Shown here: in pieces, positions 237 to 59,288 of the stretch | Position numbering within the stretch: position 1 is the first letter of the stretch | Layout: every line of letters begins with the position of its first letter | Assembly: GCF_964213995.1 (NCBI RefSeq) | Contig: NC_135807.1 | Coordinates: 73,718,001-73,782,000, forward strand | Direction of reading: 5' to 3' | Length of the DNA: 64,000 bases | Source of the DNA: Mustelus asterias | Taxonomy: Eukaryota | Made by a program: the position numbers and the translations under genes | Notes under the pieces: model-generated | What the model was told of the DNA's origin: nothing | Seen by the model: the letters and a program-made list of their open reading frames with translations, nothing else | Database searches by the model: none

Positions 237-1409
237 GTGAGACAGCTTTCAGTCACCTCTATCTATACAGGCTACTGTAGTAATCTTCCCAACAGCAAGC
301 TGGTCCTCGGCTCCCCCTTTCTTTGAAGGATCTCCTCTGGCAAAACCTCCAAAGCTGCTTTACTGATTGGGTCTGTTCCAAAATATCCCTTGGTTACAGT
401 GACCTCAAATGTGCTGTACAACATTGGATGAAGTGTAAAATTAGATAACTGCACACTTCCTCTCCAGAAAATCTTAATTCCTGTTGTTATTATTGTCACA
501 TTTTTGTGTCAACCATTTCCATTATAAATTTGTGTGTCCACATTTAAAATTGCACATTTCTGCCTCACCTGGGAGTGAGCTTGGAGTTGGCTAGGAAAGG
601 AGGCAGCAATGGGAGGATGGAAAGAGTAGGGGGCATGGCATGATTGGGAGTGAGGGCTGGAGAGGATAGAAGTGAGAGATAGAAAAACGTTGATAAAATG
701 CCTCAATTTCCCCAATGAAATCTCCTCCAAATACAACGCCTGATGCCTCCTTTTCCTGCCCCACCACTGCCCACCAAGATTATGAAAGAAGAATAGAAAG
801 GAACAAAAAGCAGGGAATGGAAGACAGAAGCAGAATAGAACCCAAAGAAGGGAGAAAGAACAGTTTGAAGATAACATAGGCAGGTTGGAGAAAGAGGGCA
901 TAAAATTCAGATGTGTAGAGCCTTTTATTGGGCACTACAGGTGGCCTTAGGAGTTCAAACATTTCTAGTGCAGGTCGTACCAAAAGATAAATTGGTGAGG
1001 GCATTAGCACATGCAGTTAGCACTGGTGGAGATAGCAGAACTGACTTCAGTGCTACCATTTTTCAGCCCAATACTCCTGCCTCCTCTTAATGATCTACGA
1101 CAGAACATGAAGCATGAAGGACTCCTCCCCGAAACCCCATCCCCCGCCCACTCCCTCCCACTCCTGCTGTTTAAAGCAATCATTAATTATTTTTAGATTT
1201 TATTGCTAGCTAATTTCTACTGGTTTTTGCTCAAACTGTATGAATCTTTGGTGCTATCTAGATTTCCTTGACGCTGTTCAGTGTGGTGTGGCAGATGCTG
1301 TAGGTGTTGGAACTGATGAAAGGATTTGAAATGTTAATTATATTTCTCTCTGCACTGATATTGCCTGATCTGCTTAACATTTCCAGCTTTTTCTGTTTTT
1401 ATTTCACAC

Positions 1410-1790
1410 ACTGCTCAATTCACACCTTCATTTGCCCACCAAAATTCTCTAACAACCACAACTCATTCCTCACGGTCACCTCACCCTCACACATTTAGTG
1501 CAGTCGCAAGTCTCACTCTCATATTTTAAAGCTTGCACACATAGCCAGCTATTCAACCTTCACAGGCGTGTCAGCCGAATAGATTGCACCACACTCACTG
1601 ACATGCTTCCCTCTCTCTTGCAGGACAATGTGATACACAACTGCAGGCAGCAGTACCTAACTGGCAGGGGCAGGAGTGGCTGCCTGTCCTCAACTCAACA
1701 GAAGAGACTGCGCAGGCCATCACTCTGCCAGCGGTGTGTTTGAAAACATTGAAGGTGACAGTATGTTCATCCTAATCCTCCTAATCTTGG
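1410..1790 (+). mobile_element. Fragment of a decayed Harbinger Myb/SANT accessory gene (intron plus exon 2)
   Basis: Acceptor CTCTCTCTTGCAG then DNVIHNCRQQYLTGRG from 1624, matching DKIIHNSR-TSQTRGG after the acceptor at 42942 on the minus strand. Confidence 0.5.
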
Positions 1791-1794
1791 CAAT

Positions 1795-4075
1795 GTGATC
1801 TGATTTAGTAAGCTTTAAGATGAAGTTAGGCATAGATTTAAGTGTGACGAAACCTGGATTAATAGATTGGAGAAAAGCTGATTTTGAGGGGCTGAGAATA
1901 GAACTTGGAAAAATAAAATGGGCGACATTATTGGCAAACAAAGATGTCGAACACGAATGGGAGACATTTAAAATGGTGTTTTTCAATTTGCTCATGCAGG
2001 CATCACTGGCTAGGCCAACACTTATTGCCCTTCCCTAATTGCCCTTGAGAAGGTAGCGGTGAGCTGCCTTCCTGAACCACTGCATTCCGTGAGTTGTAGA
2101 TACACCCACAGTAATGTTGGAGAGGGAGTCCTAGGATTTTGACCCAGTGGCAGCAAAAGGAATGGCAATATATTTCCAAGTCAGGATGGTGTGTGGCTTG
2201 GAGGGGAAATTGCAGCTGGTGGCATTCCCATTCATCTGCTACCCTTGTCTTTCTAGATGGTAGCTGTTTGGAAGGTGCTGTCAAAGGAGCCTTGGAAAGT
2301 TGTTGCAGTGCATCTTGTAGATGGTACACTGCTGCCACTGATTGGCAGTAGTGGAGGGAGTGCCACTTAAGCAGACGGCTTTGTACTGGATGGTGTGGAA
2401 CTTCTTGAGTGTTTCTGGAGCTGTACTCATCCTGGCAAGGGGAGAGTATTCCATTTCACTCCTGACTTTTACCTCATAAATGTCAACAGGCTTTGAAGAG
2501 TCAGGAGGTGAGTTACTCACTGCAGGATTCCTAGCTTCTGACCAGCTCTTCAAGGGATATCAAACAATATAGCAAAATAGTTTACAGGCATGTCAATAAA
2601 AGAAGAAGGCTGTGATGTGAATTGGACCATTAAGGGGTAGACAGACTAAAATCACAGGTAGTAACAGAGAGATGGCAGAAATATTAAATAATTATTTTGC
2701 TTTGTTACTTACCAGGGAGATAGAATAGGCCAGTATAACATTGAATGATGAGATGAGCAATGGGATCAGCGTATTTAAATTTTAAAAAGGGGATGTAGAT
2801 ACGAACATACAAAATAGGAGCAGAAGTAGGCCTTTCGGCCCCTCAAGCATGCTGGCTGATCTGTGGTTCTAGTTCCACATTCCCAGTTACTCTTGATAAC
2901 CTTTGATTCCCTTTCCTAACAAGAATCTACCTACCTCTTCCTTATAAGTATTTTTGGAGAGAGCGTAGATAATAGTAATATAGTAGATGGAATTTACCTG
3001 GATGTTAAAAAGGCCTTTGCTAAGATGCCCCATAATAGACTAATGAAAAAGTTAGTGAATGGAGTCAAGGGATAAATGGATGAATAGATTGCCAGTTAGC
3101 TTCAAGGCAGAAAGCAGAGAGTGGGAGTAGATGGTAGTTATTTTGAGTGGCTAACTGATGTTTTACAAAGATCAATGCTGGGATCACCGCTATTTTCAAT
3201 TTACATTAATGAATTGGACTTTGAAATCAAAAACACAATATCTAAATTTGTAGATGATACCAGATTGGGAAGATAGTCAATAATGAAGAGAACTGCAACA
3301 AATTATAGGAGAGCATTAATATACTTGCAGAATGGGCAAACAATTGGCAAGTGAAGTATAGCATAGATAAATGTAATATATTTTGGTAGGAAGAATAAGA
3401 AGGTCACTTAATACTTGGAAGGTACAAGTCTAGGTGGGGTAGAAGAAGGGATCTTGGAGTGCAAAAACAGCAATCAAGAAAGACGCTGCCTCAAGTTAAC
3501 AAGGCCATAAAATAACTAATCAAGTGCAAAGTTTTATTTCTGGTGGGAAAAGTAGGGAAGACCAAACCTGTATTGAACTCGCGTATTTCTGGTCACCATA
3601 TTATAAAATGGACATAGAGATACAGGAGAGAATGCAAAAAAGATTTACAATAATGATAGCAGAACTGTGTGAAAGTACGTATCAGGAAAGAATTAACAGG
3701 CTGATTCTCCTTTCTCTTGAAGAAAGAAGCTGTGGGATCTTCCAAAAGAGGATATTTAAAATTATGAGACATTTTGATACAGTGGATACAGAATCAATAC
3801 ATTTTCTTGTGGGGAAGAGAATAACCAGAGGCCATCAATAGAAGGTAGTTCAATAGGATTTCTTTCCCCAAAGCAATGAGGAGAATTTGTAATTCAGTAG
3901 CACAGGAAATGGTGAAAGCAAATAGTACAGATGCATCTAAGGGGAAGTTAGATAACATATAAGGGATAGAGGGCTACAATGAAAGATTTAAATGAGGCAA
4001 GATGGAAGGAGGCTCAGGTGAAACATAAACATTGACATGTACTGCTTGAGCCGAATGGCCTGTTCCTGTATCATG
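1795..4075 (+). mobile_element. Old CR1 LINE (ORF2 remnant through 3' UTR), interrupted by younger inserts at ~2000-2550 and ~2800-2960
   Basis: IDWRKADFEGLR..WETFK, decayed KFVDDT near 3245, FWSPYYKMDI..QKRFT, CR1-type 3' end GCCGAATGGCCTGTTCCTGT. Confidence 0.85.
2000..2552 (-). mobile_element. 3' fragment of CR1/L2-group LINE family B
   Basis: Matches the 3' part of 4330-6015 and other copies (TTATTGCCC.TCCCTAATTGCCCTTGAGAAGG tail; MEYSPLARM). Confidence 0.8.
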
Positions 4076-12940: not shown

Positions 12941-13060
12941 GATGTGGAGATGCCGGCATTGGACTGGGGTAAACACAGTAAGAAGTCCGAAAGCTTATGG
13001 TATTTGCTACCAAATAAACCTGTTGGACTTTAACCTGGTGTTGTGAGACTTCTTACTGTG
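12941..13060. mobile_element. Minimal Penelope-like insertion with short inverted ends
   Basis: Same GATGTGGAGATGCCGG start as 25555 and 39230; inverted CACAGTAAGAAGTC/GACTTCTTACTGTG; 12-bp TSD TTCACAATACTT at 12929-12940 and 13061-13072. Confidence 0.85.
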
Positions 13061-13477
13061 TTCACAATACTTCACAGAGCAGTCTCACAGCTCTAAATAT
13101 ATTGTCATTGAAGAGGTACTCAGAAATGTCAGGAACAGAGATGGTAACAAATGGCTGACTATTCTTCTTGTTTCATTGAGTAAGTGGTCCTTCAGGTTCC
13201 AGGTCACTACACACCTGACAACTGAACAATAATCTAATAAACATTGTCATTGATCGATGTGTGACTCCTGCCTAACAGAGATGTGTTTGATTTTCCTTGC
13301 TCCAATAGAGATTGATACCCATGCTCATACCCACAGCCTCAACTTCAACACAACTCAGTACTCTGTGTGTCTTCAAAAATGACCAATATCAATCTGCCAT
13401 GTGCCTGTGACTAATTCACCATATGTGGCAAGTGGTGATCGTATTGAATACTGACCTATTCAGCGCACTTTACAGTT

Positions 13478-14133: not shown

Positions 14134-14396
14134 ACACAGTAAGAAGTTTAACAACACCAGGTTAAAGTCCAACAGGTTTATTTGGTAGCAAAAGCCACAC
14201 AAGCTTTCGAAGCTCTAAGCCCCTTCTTCAGGTGAGTGGGAATTCTGTTCACAAACAGAGTTTATAAAGACACAGACTCAATTTACATGAATAATGGTTG
14301 GAATGCGAATACTTACAACTAATCAAGTCTTTAAGAAACAAAACAATGGGAGTGGAGAGAGCATCAAGACAGGCTAAAAAGATGTGTATTGTCTCC
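14134..14396 (-). mobile_element. Penelope-like family 1 pseudo-LTR inserted into the Gypsy remnant
   Basis: Reverse complement matches 40895-41091. Confidence 0.85.
14198..14234 (-). ncRNA. Minimal type I hammerhead ribozyme motif
   Basis: CAC-CTGAAGA-A-GGGGCT(TAG)AGCTTC-GAAA-GCTT-GTG. Confidence 0.7.
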
Positions 14397-24795: not shown

Positions 24796-25647
24796 CTTGA
24801 GGAAGGTAGCCATATTTGAAATGAAGGGAACTCTATGGCACAAGCTAATATATAGGTTTGGAGGTGGTTAACAGTGCGATTGCTTCCTCCCACATAGACC
24901 CTGGCAGCAGGTTAAAAAATATTTAGGCCTGGGAAAGGATTAAAATAAAGTTAGTCACAATTTTGCAATTCAAATTATACCTGCGTACGTACTTTACATG
25001 CCACATGCACTGTGGTCTAAAAGTGGAGCAGTATCTGTGAAGAAGAATGGGATGCAATGGCACAACCATTCATATCTTGATCACCAATATTTTCATGTCC
25101 TGATACTTCAGCATGAACCTTTGTGGCTAGAACAGAGAAACATTTCTAACATAATATTGAACTGTTTCATGTTGTATTACCAAGTCAAAATGCCACCTGA
25201 AGTTATTTGCATGCAACTTAATTATTTTTAAACAATATGGGATGTTGGGATGTAGACTGAACAATGAGGTATCGAGTTCAGTGTTATTTCCTGCTGCTGA
25301 AAGCCAAAAGGTTAAGTTGGGCTGTTGACAGGCCTCCAATGTCTAAATGCTGAAGCCCCATGAGAGCAAATGTTATCCTCCAATTCGTGGGAACTGATGA
25401 AGTAGAGGATATGTGCTGGCAAAGATTGGTGGCAAATACTCCCTCCTCATTGCTTCCTTTTAAAATTCTCTCACTCAGTAGCATCCAGTCACAGCACCCT
25501 CGCAGCTGCATAGCCCTCAAGAGACAATAACAGTATCCTGGCTAATAAATACATGATGTGGAGATGCCGGCGTTGGACTGGGGTAAACACAGTAAGAAGT
25601 CTCACAACACCAGGTTAAAGTCCAACAGATTTATTTGGTAGCAAATA

Positions 25648-25684
25648 CCATAAGCTTTCGGAGCACTGCTCCTTCGTCAGATGG
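25648..25684 (-). ncRNA. Minimal hammerhead ribozyme motif (left arm)
   Basis: Exact reverse complement of 25939-25975. Confidence 0.72.
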
Positions 25685-25938
25685 AGTGGAAATGTGCTCT
25701 CAAACAGTGCACAGACACAGAAATCAAGTTACAGAATACTAATTAGAAACTTGATGTCTGTGTCGATATGCGCAATCTTCTTGGAGATCTTAACTACCAT
25801 CGACACCGCAAACTGCCAGCTCCAAGTGGAGAGGATCTCCAAGAAGATCGGGCATATCGACACAGACATCAAGTTTCTAATTAGTATTCTGTAACTTGAT
25901 TTCTGTGTCTGTGCACTGTTTGAGAGCACATTTCCACT

Positions 25939-25975
25939 CCATCTGACGAAGGAGCAGTGCTCCGAAAGCTTATGG
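25939..25975 (+). ncRNA. Minimal hammerhead ribozyme motif (right arm)
   Basis: CCAT-CTGACGA-A-GGAGC(AGT)GCTCC-GAAA-GCTT-ATGG. Confidence 0.72.
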
Positions 25976-27269
25976 TATTTGCTACCAAATAAATCTGTTG
26001 GACTTTAACCTGGTGTTGTGAGACTTCTTACCGTAATAAATGCATTCACAGAGATTGCAGTTAGAGAATTGGGGCTACACTGTAGTCATGCTAGCTCTAA
26101 GCATGACAGCCCCACTTGGAGCATGTGATTGCAGAATCCCTCTTCAATGTATTGGCATTAAATTTGGGAGATATTTGGTGTACACCACGGGGGTCTTGTC
26201 CCAGGTTGAGCAAATCTCAGGGGAAGAAATTGAGGAACACTTTGGCGCTGGTGACCGTTCAAGCTGGCAGTGGGGGTTACTGGCGAAGCTGAGAGAGTCA
26301 AGATTTGGGGGCGAGGGGTTAATGGTGGAGGGCATTGTTGGCGAAGCTGTGAGATCCGCAGCCGGGAATAATGCAAACCTGCAAACATGCATGCGCAAAA
26401 TTTAAAGGTCTTAAGCAGTGTCCCAGCAACCTAAAACCCTGGATATGCGACAACTGCCTCAATGATGGGACAATTCTATGAAATCCAGAACAGTTGGTCA
26501 CCCTTACCGCTGGCTACAGAACAGGTGAGACTAGCCCCTCATCACGTCTTTGCAGGAAGGCTTGTCCTATTAACTTCCAAACTTCCAATTAACTGCCAGA
26601 GGAAAGCCTTCCAATGCTATTTCTCAATCAGGCTCTGAGTGCCTTTGAATGAGGCTCCTTCTCCCACACTGGGACCTGCAAAACCCTGACAGGGTTTGCT
26701 TCTTAAACTTTCCATCACCCAGTGGCGAGTCCACCACCCAGTGGTGGCAAGATGAAGCCCTTAAGTGGGCATTAATTTTGTCATTTAATCCCACCTGTCA
26801 TCTACCCTATCACAGACCTTCTCCTGTGTTCTTTCTCCTTTCACCTCATCCCTTTCCCTCCTTCTGTACTTGCTTAAACCCTGTTATATCTTTATATTGA
26901 ACTTCTCCCAATCCCAATGAAAGGTGACTGACTTGAAACTTTAACTCTGTTTTTCTTTCCGCCGATGCTGCCTGACCTGCTGAATATTTCCAGCATCTAG
27001 TATTTGCTATTGTTGTAGAGGTTGTGTTAGGCAGAGCATACTGTTCATTGGGGCAGCTGATGATTTGATGCTGATGATCATAGGACTGTTCATCCGGGCA
27101 AAATTACACAGTTACTGAAGTTATTGATTGTCCACCAGTGGCTGCAAGTTAACCATTTTATGTTTCTCCTCCTCAATGTAAAGTCTTCAGATTGATTCTT
27201 CTTTGTTTTCCTATGGCTTCCCCTCTCTAGATTGTAACATTGTGTTGTTATTTAGAAACACAAAGGTTT

Positions 27270-38662: not shown

Positions 38663-40489
38663 ACACACGTTTTCAAAAAAACAATTTTTCCACAATTTCA
38701 TAACTTCCTTAAAGTAATATACGAATAGTAACACTGCAGTAACAGTAAATTTAGGGTGTGTAAATAAAACATATAAACTTTGTTATTGTGCAGGATAAGG
38801 AAAAATAGGCTAAAATTTGCAAATACTTTACAATAACAGGGAAAAGGGGAATATCTTTATATAGCAAGGTGCTTAGCGAGATGTTCTGTGAACAGTGCCA
38901 CCACATGGTAAAATTCTGCATATGTAATAATTGAATAAAGAAATATTTTTCGAGGGAACAACAATATGTTCACAGTACATATCATCTTAAATTATGTTTT
39001 GGAATTACAATACAACCATCTATTCAATTTGAAGTAATAAGAAAATGTTTGAACAGTTAAATACGAATTGAAAAGCCCATTATCCATTTATATTGCCCAT
39101 TAGTCTATCTTCCCCTTTCAGATGTCAACTGATCTACTGTATAGTTTCAGCATTGTCTGTGCTTTTAATCCATTAATATCTGCTGTATTCCTTTTTGTAA
39201 CCACGTAATGGCTGTAAATCATTAGTGATGATGTGGAGATGCCGGCGTTGGACTGGGGTAAACTACAGTAAGAAGTCTCACAACACCAGGTTAAAGTCCA
39301 ACAGGTTTATTTGGTAGCAAAAGCCACTAGCTTTCGTGCTGAGTTTCTGGAGTAAGTCCGTAGTGTTGTGACAAAAGCTTTGTACAATGGGTTTCAGGAT
39401 GCCCTCAACGTAGCCAGAGAGGTTCTCGCACAGGGTCCCATTGCCCGATATGATGGGACAGCCGGGTGTGTTTGCCTTGTGTGTCTTCGGGAGACAGCAG
39501 AGATCTCCAACGCGGGGAGTACGTGGGATGAGAGCACGGAGGGTGCTCTGAAGGTCCAGATCAAAGGTCTTGATCAGTCTGTGCAACTTCCTACAGAAAC
39601 TCAGCACACATGGAGCAGTTGAACCAGGAGGTTAACCGCACGAACTCCTCGTCACAATGGATGTCTCTACACCAACATCCCCCACAACAATGGCATTGCT
39701 GCAACTGCCTCAGTACTCAACGCCGACAACTGCCAGTCTCCAGATGCAATTTTACAACTCATCCGCTTCATGCTGGACCACAATGTCTTCACCTTCAACA
39801 ACCAGTTCTTCATCCAGACACACAGAACAGCCATGGGGACCAAATATGATGGCATTTTCTTCCTTTGGACTCATGGTGAACAATCACTGAAACAACTATA
39901 TGATGACATCAACAAGTTCCATCCCACCATCAGACTCACCATGGACTACTCTCCGGAATCGGTTGCATTCTTGGACACACGCATCTCCATCAAGGATGGT
40001 CGCCTCAGCACCTCACTGTACCGCAAGCCCACGGATCCATCCCCTACGGACAAGCCCTCCGTATACACAGGATCTGCTCGGATGAGGAGGATCGCAACAG
40101 ATACTTCCAGACGCTGAAAGATATCTTCATAAGAACAGGATATGGCGCTCGACTCATCAATCGACAGTTCTGACGCACCACAGCGAAAAACCGTACCGAC
40201 CTCCTCAGAAGACAAACACGGGACACGGTGGACAAGGTACCCTTCGTCGTTCAGTACTTCCCCGGAGCGGAGCAGCTACGACATCTTCTCCGGAGCCTTC
40301 AACATGTCATTGATGAAGACGAACATCTCGCCAAGGCCATCCCCACACCCCCACTTCTTGCCTTCAAACAACCGCACAACCTCAAACAGACCATTGTCCG
40401 CAGCAAACTACCCAGCCTTCAGGAGAACAGTGACTACGACATCACACAACCCTGCCACAGCAACCTCTGCAAGATATGCCGGATCATCG

Positions 40490-40846
40490 AACACCATCCA
40501 CCAGGTACACGGTACATACACTTGCAACTCGGCCAACGTTGTCTACCTGATACGCTGCAGGAAAGGATATCCCGAGACATGGTACATTGGGGAGACTATG
40601 CAGACGCTACGACAATGGATGAATGAACACCGCACGACAATCACCAGGCAAGAGTGTTCTCTTCCTGTTGGGGAACACTTCAGCGGTCACGGGCATTCGG
40701 CCTCTGATCTTCGGGTAAGCGTTCTCCAAGGCAGCCTTCACAATACACGACTGCGCAGAGTCGCTGAGCAGAGACTGATAGCCAAGTTCCGCACACATGA
40801 GGACGGCCTCAGCCGGGATCTTGGGTTCATGTCACACTATCTGTAA
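40490..40846 (+). pseudogene. GIY-YIG endonuclease domain of the Penelope ORF
   Basis: YTCNSANVVYLIRC..WYIGET..LRQWMNEH..VGEHF..AEQRLIAKF..GLS; upstream frameshifts. Confidence 0.88.
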
Positions 40847-40999
40847 CCCCCATGATTTGCCTGGGCTTGCAAAATCTCACTAACTGTCCTGGCTGGAGAC
40901 AATACACATCTCTTTAACCTGTGCTTAACCCTCTCTCCACTCACATTGCCTGTACCTTTAAGACTTGATTATGCCCTGTTTGTGAACTGAAATCCCACT

Positions 41000-41034
41000 C
41001 ACCTGATGAAGGAGCAGCGCTTCGAAAGCTAGTG
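41000..41034 (+). ncRNA. Minimal hammerhead ribozyme motif in the 3' pseudo-LTR
   Basis: CAC-CTGATGA-A-GGAGC(AGC)GCTTC-GAAA-GCTA-GTG. Confidence 0.75.
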
Positions 41035-41325
41035 GCTTTTGCTGCCAAATAAACCTGTTGGACTTTAACCTGGTGTTGTGAGACTTCTTACAATCATTAG
41101 TGACCCATTGAGGAAGAATTCTGGTGATGCTTTGCAAACTTACATTGATTCCCTGATGGCAAGCAGCACCATGGGCTGCCTTCCACACAGCCCACGTGGC
41201 ATTCCTCACTGGCATTAATGAAGAATATAGCTTGGGCTGTGTACGCAGTGGTCTGATGCACTGCCTGTCCTTGAGAAATTGATCAGAAATGCCGCAGCGC
41301 GGTCAAAGTTCTCCCCCATAATCTT

Positions 41326-45709: not shown

Positions 45710-47177
45710 TAGAACATAGAACATTACAGCACAGTACAGGCCCTTCGGCCCTCGATGTTGCGCCGACCAGTGAAACCAATCTAAAGCCCATCTAACCTAC
45801 ACTATTCCAATATCATCCATATGTTTAACCAATGACCATTTAAATGCCCTTAACGTTGGCGAGTCCACTACTGTTGCAGGCAGGGCATTCCACACCCTTA
45901 TTACTCTCTGAGTAAAGAACCTACCTCTGACATCTGTCCTTTATCTATCACCCCTCAATTTAAAGCTATGTCCCCTCGTGCTAGCCATCATCATCCGAGG
46001 AAAAAGGCTCTCACTGCCCACCCTATCTAATCCTCTGATCATCTTGTATGCCTCTATTAAGTCACCTCTTAACCTTCTTCTCTCTAATGAAAACAGCCTC
46101 AAGTTCCTCAGCCTTTCCTCATAAGACCTTCCCACCATACCAGGCAACATCCTGGTAAATCTCCTCTGCACCCTTTCCAATGCTTCCCCATCCTTCCTAT
46201 AATGCGGCGACCAGAACTGTACGCAATACTCCAAGTGCAGCCGCACCAGAGTTTTGTACAGCTGCAACATGACCTCATGGCTCCGAAACTCAATCCCTCT
46301 ACCAATAAAAGCTAACACACCGTACGCCTTCTTAACAACCCTATCAACCTGGGTACCAACTTTCAGGGATCTATGCACATGGACACTGAGATCTCCCTCT
46401 GCTCATCCACACTACCAAATATTTTACCATTAGCCCAGTACTCTGTATTCCTGTTACTCCTTCCAAAGTGAATCACCTCACACTTTTCCGCATTAAACTC
46501 CATTTGCCACCTCTCAGCCCATCTCTGCAGCTTATGTATGTCCTTCTGTAACCTGCAACATCCTTCCACACTGTCCACAACTCCACCGACTTTAGTGTCA
46601 TCCGCAAATTTACTAACCCATCCTTCTACGCCCTCATCCAGGTCATTTATAAAAATGACAAACAGCAGTGGCCCCAAAACAGATCCTTGCAGTACACCAC
46701 TAGTAACTGAACTCCAGGATGAACATTTCCCATCAACCACCACCCTCTGTCTTCTTACAGCTAGCCAATTTCTGATCCAAACCGCTAAATCACCCTCAAT
46801 CCCATGCATCCATATTTTCTGCAATAGCTTACCATGGGGAACCTTATCAAATGCTTTACTGAAATCCATATACACCACATCAACTGCTTTACCCTCATCC
46901 ACCTCTTTGGTCACCTTCTCAAAGAACTCAATAAGGTTTGTGAGGCACGGCCTACCCTTCACAAAACCGTGTTGACTATCCCTAATCAAATTATTCCTTT
47001 CTAGATGACTATCAATCCTATCTCTTATAATCCTTTCCAAAACTTTGCTCATAACAGAAGTAAGGCTCACTGGTCTATAATTACCAGGGTTGTCTCTACT
47101 CCCCTTCTTGAACAAGGGGACAACATTTGCTATCCTCCAGTCTTCTGGCACTATTCCTGTCGACAATGATGACATAA
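45710..47177 (-). mobile_element. Young 5'-truncated CR1 LINE with near-intact RT
   Basis: NYRPVSLTS..QHGF..DFSKAFDKV..QGSVLGPLLF..KFADD (ORF 46363-47229), one frameshift to 45941-46378; (ATAGAAC)n tail; TAGTGCA TSD at 45703-45709 and 47178-47184. Confidence 0.95.
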
Positions 47178-47628
47178 TAGTGCACATCTCTTTCCTTACC
47201 CTCAGTTTTTCCTTTACATCTTTATTCATCCAAGATGTCTAATGTTTGTTTAATTTGGTTTATTTTCTCCAGACCCTGTTGAACAGCACTTTAAATGTTT
47301 CCCTACATGATTGTTTGCCAAAATTGTTATTCATTTTACTTTCTCACTTTTATTCTCAGCAACTCAAAATCAACTTTCCTCCCATCTATTACCAATCTTT
47401 GCCATGCTTATGTCCTTCTCAATTATTATCTTAAAGCATATTATAATCACTATTATCTAGATGCTCCCCCACCTTTACCACTATTATTTGCTCTGGATTA
47501 GTCTCCATTACAAAATAAATAGTGAATTCTCTCTTGTTAATAATCTTAGGTAAAAAGAGAAAATGTTGGAAATACTCAGCTGATTAGGCAGCATTGATGG
47601 AGAGAGAAACAGAATTAATCTTTCAGAT

Positions 47629-55764: not shown

Positions 55765-57332
55765 AAGAACAAAGATCAAAGAAAATTACAGCACAGGAAC
55801 AGGCCCTTCGGCCCTCCAAGCCTGTACCGATCATGCTGCCCGACTGAACTAAAACCCTCTACCCTTCCGGGCACCATATCCCTCTATTCCCACCCTATTC
55901 ATTCATGTATTTGTCAAGACGCCCCTTAAAAATCACTATTGTATCTGCTTCCACTACCTCCCCAGGCAGCAAGTTCCAGGCACCCACCACCCTCTGTGTA
56001 AAAAGTTTGCCTCGTACATCTCCTTTAAACCATGCCCCTCACACCTTAAACCTGTGCCCCCAAGTAATTGACTCTTCCACCCTGGGAAAAAGCTTCTGAC
56101 TATCCACTCTGTCCATGCCCCTCATAATCTTATAGACTTCTATCAGGTTGCCCCTCAACCTCTGTCGTTCCAGTGAGAACAAACCAAGTTTCTCCAACCT
56201 CTCCTCATAGCTAATGCCCTCCATACCAGGCAACATCCTGGTAAATCTTTTCTGTACCCTCTCTAAAGCCTCCACATCCTGCTGGTAATGTGGCGACCAG
56301 AATTGAACACTATATTCCAAGTGCGGCCTAACTAAGGTTCTAGAAAGCTGCAACATGACTTGCCAATTTTTAAACTCAATCTCCCGGCCGATGAAGGCAA
56401 GCATGCCGTATGCCTTCTTGACTACCTTCTCCACCTCCATTGCCACTTTCAGTGACCTGTGTACCTGTACACCCAGGTCCCTCTGCCTATCAATACTCTT
56501 AAGGGTTCTGCCATTTACTGCATATTTCCTATCTGTATTAGAACCTTCCAAAAAGCATTACCTCACATTTGTCTGGATCAAACTCCATCTGCCATCTCTC
56601 CACCCAAGTCTCCAACTGATCTATATCCTACTGTATCCTCTGATGGTCCTCATCGCCTATCCGCAAATCCATCAAACTTTGTGTCGTCCGCAAACTTACT
56701 ACTCAAACCAGTTATATTTTCCTCCAAATCATTTATATGTATTACAAAGAGCAAAAGTCCCAGCACTGATCCCTGAGGAACACCACTTGTCACAGACCTC
56801 CATTCAGAAACACACCCTTCCACTGCTACCCTTTGTCTTCTATGATTGAGCCAGTTTTGTATCCACCTTACCAGCTCACCTCTGATCCCATGCAACTTCA
56901 GCTTCTGCACTAGTCTGCCATGAGGGACCTTGTCAAAGGCCTTATTGAAGTCCATGTAGACAACATCCACTGCTCTACCCTCATCAATCATCTTCGTCAC
57001 TTCCTCAAAAAACTCGATCAAGTTAGTGAGACTCGACCTCCCCTTCACAAAACCATGTTGCCTCTTGTTAATACGTCCACTTATTTCCAAGTGGGAATAA
57101 ATTTTGTCTCGAAGAATCCTCTCCAATAATTTCCCTACCACTGATGTAAGGCTCACCGGCCTGTAATTACCTGGGTTATTCTTGCTACCCTTGTTAAACA
57201 AAGGAACAACATTGGCTATTCTCCAATCCTCTGGGACCTCCCCTGTAGCCAATTAGGATACAAAAATTTCTCTCAAGGCCCCAACAATTTCCTCCCTTGC
57301 CTCTCTCAGTATTCTGGGGTATATCCCATCAG
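55765..57332 (-). mobile_element. Young 5'-truncated CR1 LINE inserted into a Harbinger-type MITE (from ~55270)
   Basis: ORFs 56650-57252 (PQGSVLG, FADD) and 56039-56551; AAAGAAC-type tail. Confidence 0.95.
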
Positions 57333-59191: not shown

Positions 59192-59288
59192 ACACAGTAA
59201 GAAGTCTCACAACACCAGGTTAAAGTCCAACAGGTTTATTTGGTATCACAAACTTTCAGAGCGCTGCTCCTTCATCAGGTGAGTGGGG
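59192..59288 (-). mobile_element. Penelope family 1 pseudo-LTR fragment with hammerhead motif (59247-59281)
   Basis: CAC-CTGATGA-A-GGAGC(AGC)GCTCT-GAAA-GTTT-GTG on the minus strand. Confidence 0.8.

What the first reader, a model, noticed from the sequence alone, without database searches (positions are those of the whole stretch)
25555..26033. Near-perfect 440-bp fold-back carrying a hammerhead ribozyme motif on each strand
Seen: two ~198-nt arms are reverse complements (2 mismatches, near the loop), with a ~44-nt loop, a 37-nt unpaired left extension and a 12-bp TSD. Each arm holds a CUGANGA..GAAA core, so a transcript from either strand contains one sense ribozyme and can fold into a ~200-bp dsRNA hairpin. 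The centre reads TTIDTANCQLQVERISKKIGHIDTDIKFL joined directly to pseudo-LTR sequence. Known: Penelope-like elements often integrate with inverted pseudo-LTRs plus a short tail and encode minimal hammerheads. Inference: the centre is the start of the Penelope ORF, and this is a recent internally deleted, retrozyme-like derivative that could be a mobile non-autonomous family and a source of siRNA or ADAR-edited RNA.
Basis: partly seen in the sequence, partly recalled or inferred. Interest (0 to 1): 0.7.

Follow-up and report, generated by a model that had tools for sequence, protein, structure and literature searches.

The report
Penelope hairpin insertion recording template jump
This real 480-base hairpin is a single dead insertion of a very abundant Penelope-type jumping gene, not a mobile mini-family, but its odd centre is one of many such joins in this genome that likely record the copying enzyme restarting about 90 bases inside the gene, a step that could seed small ribozyme-bearing repeats.

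Summary
The palindrome is real: 201-nt arms with 3 mismatches, 44-nt loop, unpaired tail, 11/12 TSD, and junctions present in public contigs. It is a head-to-head insertion of a Penelope-like element (Neptune/Nematis type; over 112,000 pLTR anchor hits), a layout already in print. The 'mobile non-autonomous family' reading fails: the exact ORF-to-pLTR junction occurs only in these two arms, and similar junctions are scattered over several subfamilies. Both hammerheads are predicted to be locked in the duplex. The centre points to a general habit: 52 of 100 ORF starts break off at +82 to +115 (mode +92), against 7 of 100 in the next 45 nt; some sit directly on a TSD; jumps favour the base of a predicted pLTR-ORF helix; ends recur within one insertion. 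Likely: both target strands primed on one short RNA, with a third start site near +92.

The parts
25543..25554 (+). Left target-site duplication (12 nt); its last 3 nt also match the element's start codon on the other strand
25555..25588 (-). Unpaired 'tail' of the pLTR (element positions about -1 to -34 before the ATG)
   Evidence: tail described in PMC8557442 and PMC11167929
25589..25748 (-). Left arm, pLTR part (-35 to -194)
25648..25684 (-). Minimal type I hammerhead motif of the left arm
   Evidence: mirror of 25939-25975; sequence
25744..25789 (-). Left arm, ORF fragment +90 to +45; 25744-25748 is the 5-nt overlap shared by ORF and pLTR
25790..25833 (+). 44-nt loop: 3 bases of neither side, then ORF +4 to +44
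   Evidence: joint seen in contigs
25793..25879 (+). Right unit, ORF fragment +4 to +90 (no start codon)
25852..25914 (+). Predicted hairpin between ORF (+63 to +87) and pLTR (about -185 to -155); the junction lies in its loop
   Evidence: -25.4 kcal/mol, z -5.7
25875..26034 (+). Right arm, pLTR part (-194 to -35); 25875-25879 is the 5-nt overlap at the jump
25939..25975 (+). Minimal type I hammerhead motif: 4-bp helix I, core 25943-25949, bulged A, 5-bp helix II, GAAA, predicted cut after 25971
   Evidence: layout as in PMC4209133
26034..26045 (+). Right target-site duplication (11 of 12 identical to the left)
25539..26050 (.). Symmetric target: TG at 25539-25540 and CA at 26049-26050, 17 nt apart in the rebuilt empty site

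Best explanation
The hairpin is a one-off, non-coding insertion of an abundant endonuclease-bearing Penelope-like retrotransposon, likely made when both nicked strands of one target primed reverse transcription on the same short RNA and each copy likely jumped from the 5' edge of the pseudo-LTR to a restart site near ORF position +90. Shown: the parent element, the layout, the TSD, the symmetric target, the uniqueness of this junction, the genome-wide hot spot of ORF ends at +82 to +115, their scatter over subfamilies, and the reuse of the same ends within one insertion. Inferred: the enzyme cuts both strands about 12 nt apart; one strand starts at the tail end (position 0), the other at about -35; each runs through the hammerhead to -194; a long-range helix between pLTR (-185 to -160) and ORF (+63 to +87) holds -194 next to +90, and a 5-nt overlap fixes the jump; the two cDNAs are joined head to head at the centre. 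+92 is either the usual 3' end of a short template RNA or a third protein-set start site. The product is a dead end: any transcript would be a 200-bp duplex in which neither hammerhead is predicted to fold.
For: Parent: 891-aa ORF with RT (Pfam RVT_1, E 4.9e-10) flanked by pLTRs. Junction unique; 20 looser matches at 16 loci show 9 spellings. Hot spot: 52 of the first 100 of 1,414 ORF anchors break between +82 and +115 (by eye; ends measured, mode +92 with 13 of 53), against 7 of the first 100 of 840 in +128 to +173 (by eye; Fisher p 1e-12). In 7 of 17 loci where the ORF end meets host DNA the TSD lies within 5 nt of it. Of +92 jumps whose donor lies at or beyond -186, 13 of 18 rows are at -186 to -196 (by eye), against 5 of 100 ordinary young copies stopping there (by eye; p 8e-10). 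Same 5' end within 2 nt in 15 of 44 multi-segment loci, shuffled mean 2.9 (p 5e-5); same ORF end in 12 of 15, shuffled mean 4.4. Target TG-N16/17-CA in 32 of 37 loci with a TSD, background 144 of 2,296. Helix: -31 to -34 kcal/mol, z -4.0 to -5.1 in the young subfamily; forms in an undeleted older copy. In vitro a lizard PLE cuts and extends both strands, starts at two internal sites that bound the tail, needs RNA about 55-60 nt beyond them and shows a faint product put down to priming from the RNA 3' end (PMC11167929).
Against: No RNA or biochemical data here. Counts are by eye on the first 100 listed rows, and one search covers one subfamily while one search covers all. Most +92 jumps (about 69 of 87) come from donors closer than -186, so the helix cannot be needed for jumping. 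In 7 of 14 pLTR variants tested (older or other subfamilies) the helix is weaker (-19 to -25 kcal/mol, z -1.2 to -3.8), and in 6 of these 7 the +61 window is not the best partner in the ORF. Two-sided covariation was not tested, and the complementarity could be a relic of an old inverted capture. Several loci carry different donors in their two joins (L102, L109). 8 of the 17 flank-abutting loci have the TSD 7-11 nt away and 2 have none. Organism B seems to have PLE ends at both junctions while lacking this subfamily, which a simple young insertion does not explain.
Confidence: 0.6

Rival explanations
1. The template was already joined: a covalently closed RNA circle of about 280 nt (or a transcript of a source locus absent from this assembly) was copied round from two starts. 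This is the retrozyme-like route.
For: Identical junction in both arms here and in L004 (three times, two in tandem), L005, L022, L072, L073, L101, L143; a circle gives this without a repeated jump. Unit size is in the range of animal retrozymes (PMC7229834 passages).
Against: The junction lies away from the hammerhead cut, so self-cleavage and ligation do not make it; donors are spread over the whole pLTR; some loci reuse the ORF end with different donors; no source copy.
Confidence: 0.15
2. One jump, guided only by the 5-nt overlap, and the second arm made or overwritten at the DNA level (fold-back synthesis or arm-to-arm conversion); the helix is incidental.
For: 5-nt overlap at the junction; arms 198 of 201 identical; organism B appears to hold PLE ends at the same site, which an overwritten older insertion would explain; self-priming was proposed for PLE palindromes (PMC3846280 passages).
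Against: The left arm carries a tail that the right arm lacks, so it cannot be a plain copy; the loop end has no overlap for a fold-back; shared ends also occur where other segments lie between them (L097, L107, L126); most other junctions have 0-1 nt overlap.
Confidence: 0.17
3. One reading: a member of a mobile non-autonomous, retrozyme-like family with its own amplification.
For: One spelling of the junction occurs at 4 loci, two of them (L007, L079) 1 difference apart; non-autonomous PLE derivatives and PLE-derived retrozymes are in print (PMC8557442; bioRxiv 10.64898/2026.07.22.740005).
Against: This junction is unique; the same spelling also occurs on another subfamily (L066, 8-9 differences) and an ordinary copy (L019) is as close to L007/L079 as they are to each other; hammerheads predicted to be buried.
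Confidence: 0.06
4. Assembly or library artefact.
For: Long palindromes are a known artefact class (general knowledge); no listed contig spans the whole hairpin.
Against: TSD, tail asymmetry, 3 arm differences, preferred target motif, and all three junctions in contigs, the centre in two samples.
Confidence: 0.02

Closest known systems
Inverted-pLTR insertions of EN+ Penelope-like elements, Neptune/Nematis type (PMC8557442 passages; PMC3846280 passages)
   Same: Head-to-head pLTRs, 30-40 nt tail on one end, TSD, hammerhead in the pLTR, parent ORF with RT, DKG motif and CX2-5CxxC linker.
   Different: The centre is the ORF start, not a 5'-truncated 3' end; both arms carry the same +90/-194 join.
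PAc (Poseidon of Anolis) in vitro mechanism (PMC11167929, parts 1-2 of 4)
   Same: Both strands cut and extended; two internal start sites that bound the tail; RNA downstream of the tail needed.
   Different: Only two start sites are reported there; here a third end about 90 nt past the tail leaves a footprint, with jumps to it. PAc prefers AT-rich ATT sites; here the target is TG-N16/17-CA.
Non-LTR retrozymes of animals (PMC7229834 passages; bioRxiv 10.64898/2026.07.22.740005, parts 1-3 of 5)
   Same: Non-coding, about 280-nt unit with a type I hammerhead, derived from a PLE end.
   Different: Retrozymes are head-to-tail tandem families that yield circular RNA; this locus is head to head, single copy, with minimal hammerheads predicted to be buried. 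The preprint proposes birth by local tandem amplification and, in the parts read, gives no junction mechanism.
Minimal hammerheads of metazoan PLEs (PMC4209133 passages)
   Same: Short helix I, bulged base before helix II, G10.1-C11.1, palindromic remnant of helix III; pairs of motifs 100-700 bp apart on opposite strands were already noted.
   Different: Nothing essential; activity there is low and needs dimers.
Twin priming of LINE-1 and template jumping of R2 RT (recalled, not checked by a call beyond listings)
   Same: Two primers on one RNA give an inversion; RT jumps between RNA ends.
   Different: In L1 the two primed parts do not overlap; here both cover the same 200 nt.

Membership tests
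EN+ Penelope-like element (Neptune/Nematis type) | Single ORF with RT domain in the parent | tested here: met
   L082, 891 aa, RVT_1 E 4.9e-10; window ORF fragment 98-99% identical
EN+ Penelope-like element (Neptune/Nematis type) | C-terminal GIY-YIG endonuclease with two cysteines in the core | tested here: inconclusive
   No Pfam GIY-YIG hit in L082 or L086; a VVY..C...C..W stretch fits by eye (motif from PMC8557442)
EN+ Penelope-like element (Neptune/Nematis type) | CX2-5CxxC linker and DKG motif | tested here: met
   C-X4-C-X2-C and DKG seen; definition
EN+ Penelope-like element (Neptune/Nematis type) | pLTRs in partial tandem around the ORF | tested here: met
   L080, L082, L085, L144; period 3,018 nt
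EN+ Penelope-like element (Neptune/Nematis type) | Inverted pLTR, one-sided tail, TSD | tested here: met
EN+ Penelope-like element (Neptune/Nematis type) | RT placed in the Neptune clade by a tree | not tested
   No reference RTs were fetched
Minimal PLE hammerhead | Intact core, helix I and II, U-H cut site | tested here: met
   Sequence and fold (z only -1.3); Rfam 0 matches
Minimal PLE hammerhead | Self-cleavage | not testable with these tools
   Predicted blocked in the hairpin
Non-LTR retrozyme | Two or more head-to-tail units, each with a hammerhead | tested here: not met
   Units are head to head and each incomplete; criterion from the preprint
Non-LTR retrozyme | Unit of about 150-400 nt without coding capacity | tested here: met
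   -194 to +90 is about 280 nt; no start codon kept
Non-LTR retrozyme | Expressed as linear and circular RNA | not testable with these tools
   No raw RNA reads were available
Non-autonomous PLE family | Same junction at many loci with different flanks | tested here: not met
   2 hits, both in this locus
Non-autonomous PLE family | Junction-bearing copies form one lineage | tested here: not met
   20 junction and 25 other pLTRs interleave over at least 6 groups (142-149 nt, no support values read)

The most novel reading that the evidence does not exclude
Penelope RT works on a folded RNA domain of about 280-300 nt closed by a pLTR-ORF helix, has a third start site at its 3' edge (+92) and rolls round this domain by jumping across the helix base, so that hammerhead-bearing, retrozyme-sized monomers and short tandems are born afresh again and again from the coding element: a direct mechanism for the origin of animal non-LTR retrozymes and for PLE tandem and inverted structures.
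Probability: 0.3. Interest if true: 0.72.

Novelty: new variant of a known kind. Interest (0 to 1): 0.42.

Why it matters
The locus itself is ordinary: one of more than 100,000 pLTR pieces in this genome. Its junction matters because how PLEs make their tandem and inverted structures is called unresolved in PMC8557442 and PMC11167929, and the PLE origin of retrozymes rests on co-occurrence and trees (bioRxiv 10.64898/2026.07.22.740005). The footprints give exact, testable positions (starts at -38, 0 and +92; a helix; reuse of one RNA's ends; a symmetric target) for an in vitro system that already exists for a related element.

Tried and rejected
Rfam at gathering score: 0 matches. PDB by sequence with the parent ORF: 0 matches. 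Host gene: 14 of the 51 window ORFs of 110 aa or more were scanned against Pfam; 2 hit RT, none a host family; short exons would be missed, so genic context is open. Expression: no RNA holder listed; this is no evidence either way. A general pile-up of 5' ends at the helix base, which a fixed transcript start would give, was not seen (5 of 100). A strong general peak of 5' ends at the hammerhead cut was not evident by eye in the first 100 rows; among jumps to the ORF, 3 of about 87 rows and loci L114, L139, L143, L036 join exactly at the predicted cut, which I count as a hint only. A family behind the 4-locus junction spelling was not supported. Literature searches gave no paper on a third start site or on ORF-to-pLTR jumps in PLEs; subscription papers, Repbase notes and the supplements of PMC11167929 and of the preprint were not seen and may bear on this. 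Earlier-findings look-ups by sequence and by words for the junction returned nothing. Zero cover of 25718-25736 in run X5 is a hole in contigs and proves nothing alone.

Full report
1. Observation. The inverted repeat is real: arms 25589-25789 and 25834-26034, 201 nt, 44 nt apart, 3 mismatches, folding z -42.6. The left arm has 34 extra unpaired bases, and a 12-nt TSD with one mismatch brackets the whole. Contigs of run X1 cross the left and right junctions with no differences; the centre joint is in X1 and in X3, another sample. No listed piece spans the whole, and X1 may be the assembly's own sample.

2. Parent. The window lies at G000:C7:73718001 in a 3.68-Gb genome; 'shark-like' comes from recall and earlier notes, not from a call. 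A 23-nt pLTR anchor followed the pattern 112,531 times. L082 holds a whole copy: 891-aa ORF with RT, DKG motif and C-X4-C-X2-C linker, which PMC8557442 gives for Neptune and Nematis; Pfam did not find the GIY-YIG domain. Counting from the ATG, the right unit is [+4..+90][-194..-35] and the left, inverted, is [tail..-194][+90..+45]. Over 142 nt both arms equal L023, a copy attached to the endonuclease end of the ORF. Head-to-head pLTRs with other centres are common among the top hits (L008, L009, L013-L015, L024, L027), as in print (PMC8557442; PMC3846280; opposite-strand hammerhead pairs in PMC4209133).

3. Not a family. The exact junction gives 2 hits, both here, with one mismatch allowed. 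A looser pattern gives 20 hits at 16 loci in 9 spellings. In a tree of 45 pLTR pieces the 20 junction-bearing ones are spread over at least 6 groups, next to ordinary copies. One spelling occurs on two subfamilies 8-9 differences apart. A small source-and-daughter pair (L007, L079) cannot be excluded.

4. What the junction belongs to. Of the first 100 of 1,414 matches to ORF +63..+82, 52 leave the ORF within 45 nt (by eye). I fetched the 50 regions holding these 52 and 2 more; the ends fall at +82 to +115, 13 of 53 at +92. In the next 45 nt 7 of 100 break (by eye; p 1e-12). What follows the break is host DNA or another piece of the element. In 7 of 17 loci tested with host DNA next to the ORF end, the TSD lies within 5 nt; in 8 it lies 7-11 nt away and 2 have none. 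So the target itself can be joined at about +92, as at the two tail sites. Among 100 of 157 rows with a change right after +92 (by eye), about 9 are point changes, 4 meet host DNA and about 87 are jumps, with donors grouped at -186 to -196 (13), -67 to -74 (11), -14 to -18 (10) and 3 exactly at the predicted hammerhead cut. Joints from the same ORF place to several pLTR places also appear in contigs of organisms B and D (table 5; sides of 20-27 nt, so weak).

5. The helix. ORF +63..+87 is complementary to pLTR -185..-160; the junction sits at its base. Of 20 pLTR variants found, 14 were tested: 7 of the young type bind at -31 to -34 kcal/mol (z -4.0 to -5.1; best partner in the ORF for 6 of 7), 7 others at -19 to -25 (z -1.2 to -3.8; best partner for 1 of 7). 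In an undeleted older copy folded over -205..+105, 21 long-range pairs exceed probability 0.5 (a short excerpt favours this). Jumps that get as far as -186 stop at the helix base in 13 of 18 rows, ordinary young copies in 5 of 100 (p 8e-10; subfamily mix differs). Selection on the helix is not shown.

6. One RNA, two primers. In 44 of the 51 fetched loci with two or more segments (7 single-segment loci and 5 distant segments left out), 15 have two segments with the same 5' end within 2 nt; shuffles give 2.9 (p 5e-5). ORF ends agree in 12 of 15 loci, shuffles 4.4 (this set includes loci picked for the junction). The junction is the same on both arms here and in L004, L005, L022, L072, L073, L101 and L143, yet differs between loci; L102 and L109 show different donors in one locus. 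These facts fit the in vitro results for PAc: both strands cut and extended, internal starts that bound the tail, RNA needed about 55-60 nt past them, faint 3'-end priming (PMC11167929).

7. Function of the locus. On either strand the sense hammerhead is in the second arm and pairs with the first; helix II probability is 5e-18, against 0.25 in a lone unit. Minimal PLE hammerheads need dimers and cleave weakly (PMC4209133). A transcript would be a long duplex, so siRNA or editing is possible in principle (general knowledge), but transcription is untested.

8. Unexplained. Organism B (flank about 4-5% diverged) has a contig from the left flank ending 22 nt inside the tail and one from the right flank ending in the -38 end, yet almost no cover of this subfamily's -185 segment and no centre joint. 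An independent hit on a preferred target or an overwritten older insertion would both fit.

9. Papers seen. bioRxiv 10.64898/2026.07.22.740005: parts 1-3 of 5, no supplements. PMC11167929: parts 1-2 of 4, no supplements. PMC8557442, PMC4209133, PMC7229834, PMC3846280: passages only. All others: search listings, in which I found nothing on a third start site; closed-access work was not searched.

10. Verdict. Identity as a PLE insertion about 0.97; not an amplified family about 0.9; the full mechanism 0.6; the retrozyme-birth reading 0.3. Interest 0.42.

Noticed in passing
window 25300-25576 and 26027-26126, run X5: A related species appears to carry PLE ends at both junctions of this site while lacking this subfamily: independent insertion or overwritten older copy.
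   Followed up: partly
window 12941-13065: Small PLE insertion with tail on the inverted arm, a right arm starting inside the hammerhead, and a TSD of about 13 nt.
   Followed up: no
window 39219-41101: A 1.9-kb PLE insertion of an older subfamily with inverted left arm, rearranged RT part and an 11-nt TSD.
   Followed up: no
window 14134-14396 and 59192-59287: Two more inverted pLTR fragments of this family.
   Followed up: no
window 46363-47238 and 56650-57252: Decayed LINE-type RT frames on the minus strand (Pfam RVT_1).
   Followed up: no
L114, L139, L143, L036; G000:C2:25706079, C11:57399672, C13:78965282: ORF-to-pLTR jumps whose donor begins exactly at the predicted hammerhead cut, a possible trace of cleavage in vivo.
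   Followed up: partly
rows, across subfamilies: The base at the hammerhead cut varies among U, A and C and helix I changes in step (CCAU/AUGG against UCAC/GUGG); seen by eye, not counted.
   Followed up: no
G000:C10:50499625-52203270 (L043-L059): 17 near-identical copies of a PLE ORF start spaced 40-330 kb apart in both orientations, likely a segmental duplication array.
   Followed up: no
L004 (G000:C20:33384340-33387839): The 280-nt junction unit occurs twice in tandem on one arm and once on the other, all with one junction: the closest thing seen to a newborn retrozyme-like dimer.
   Followed up: partly
rows: Jump donors also pile up at about -70, -46 and -16, suggesting short abortive starts from the two tail sites.
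   Followed up: no
L084 about 975-3591: A PLE copy interrupted by about 2.6 kb with frames that look like a DNA transposase (family not tested).
   Followed up: no
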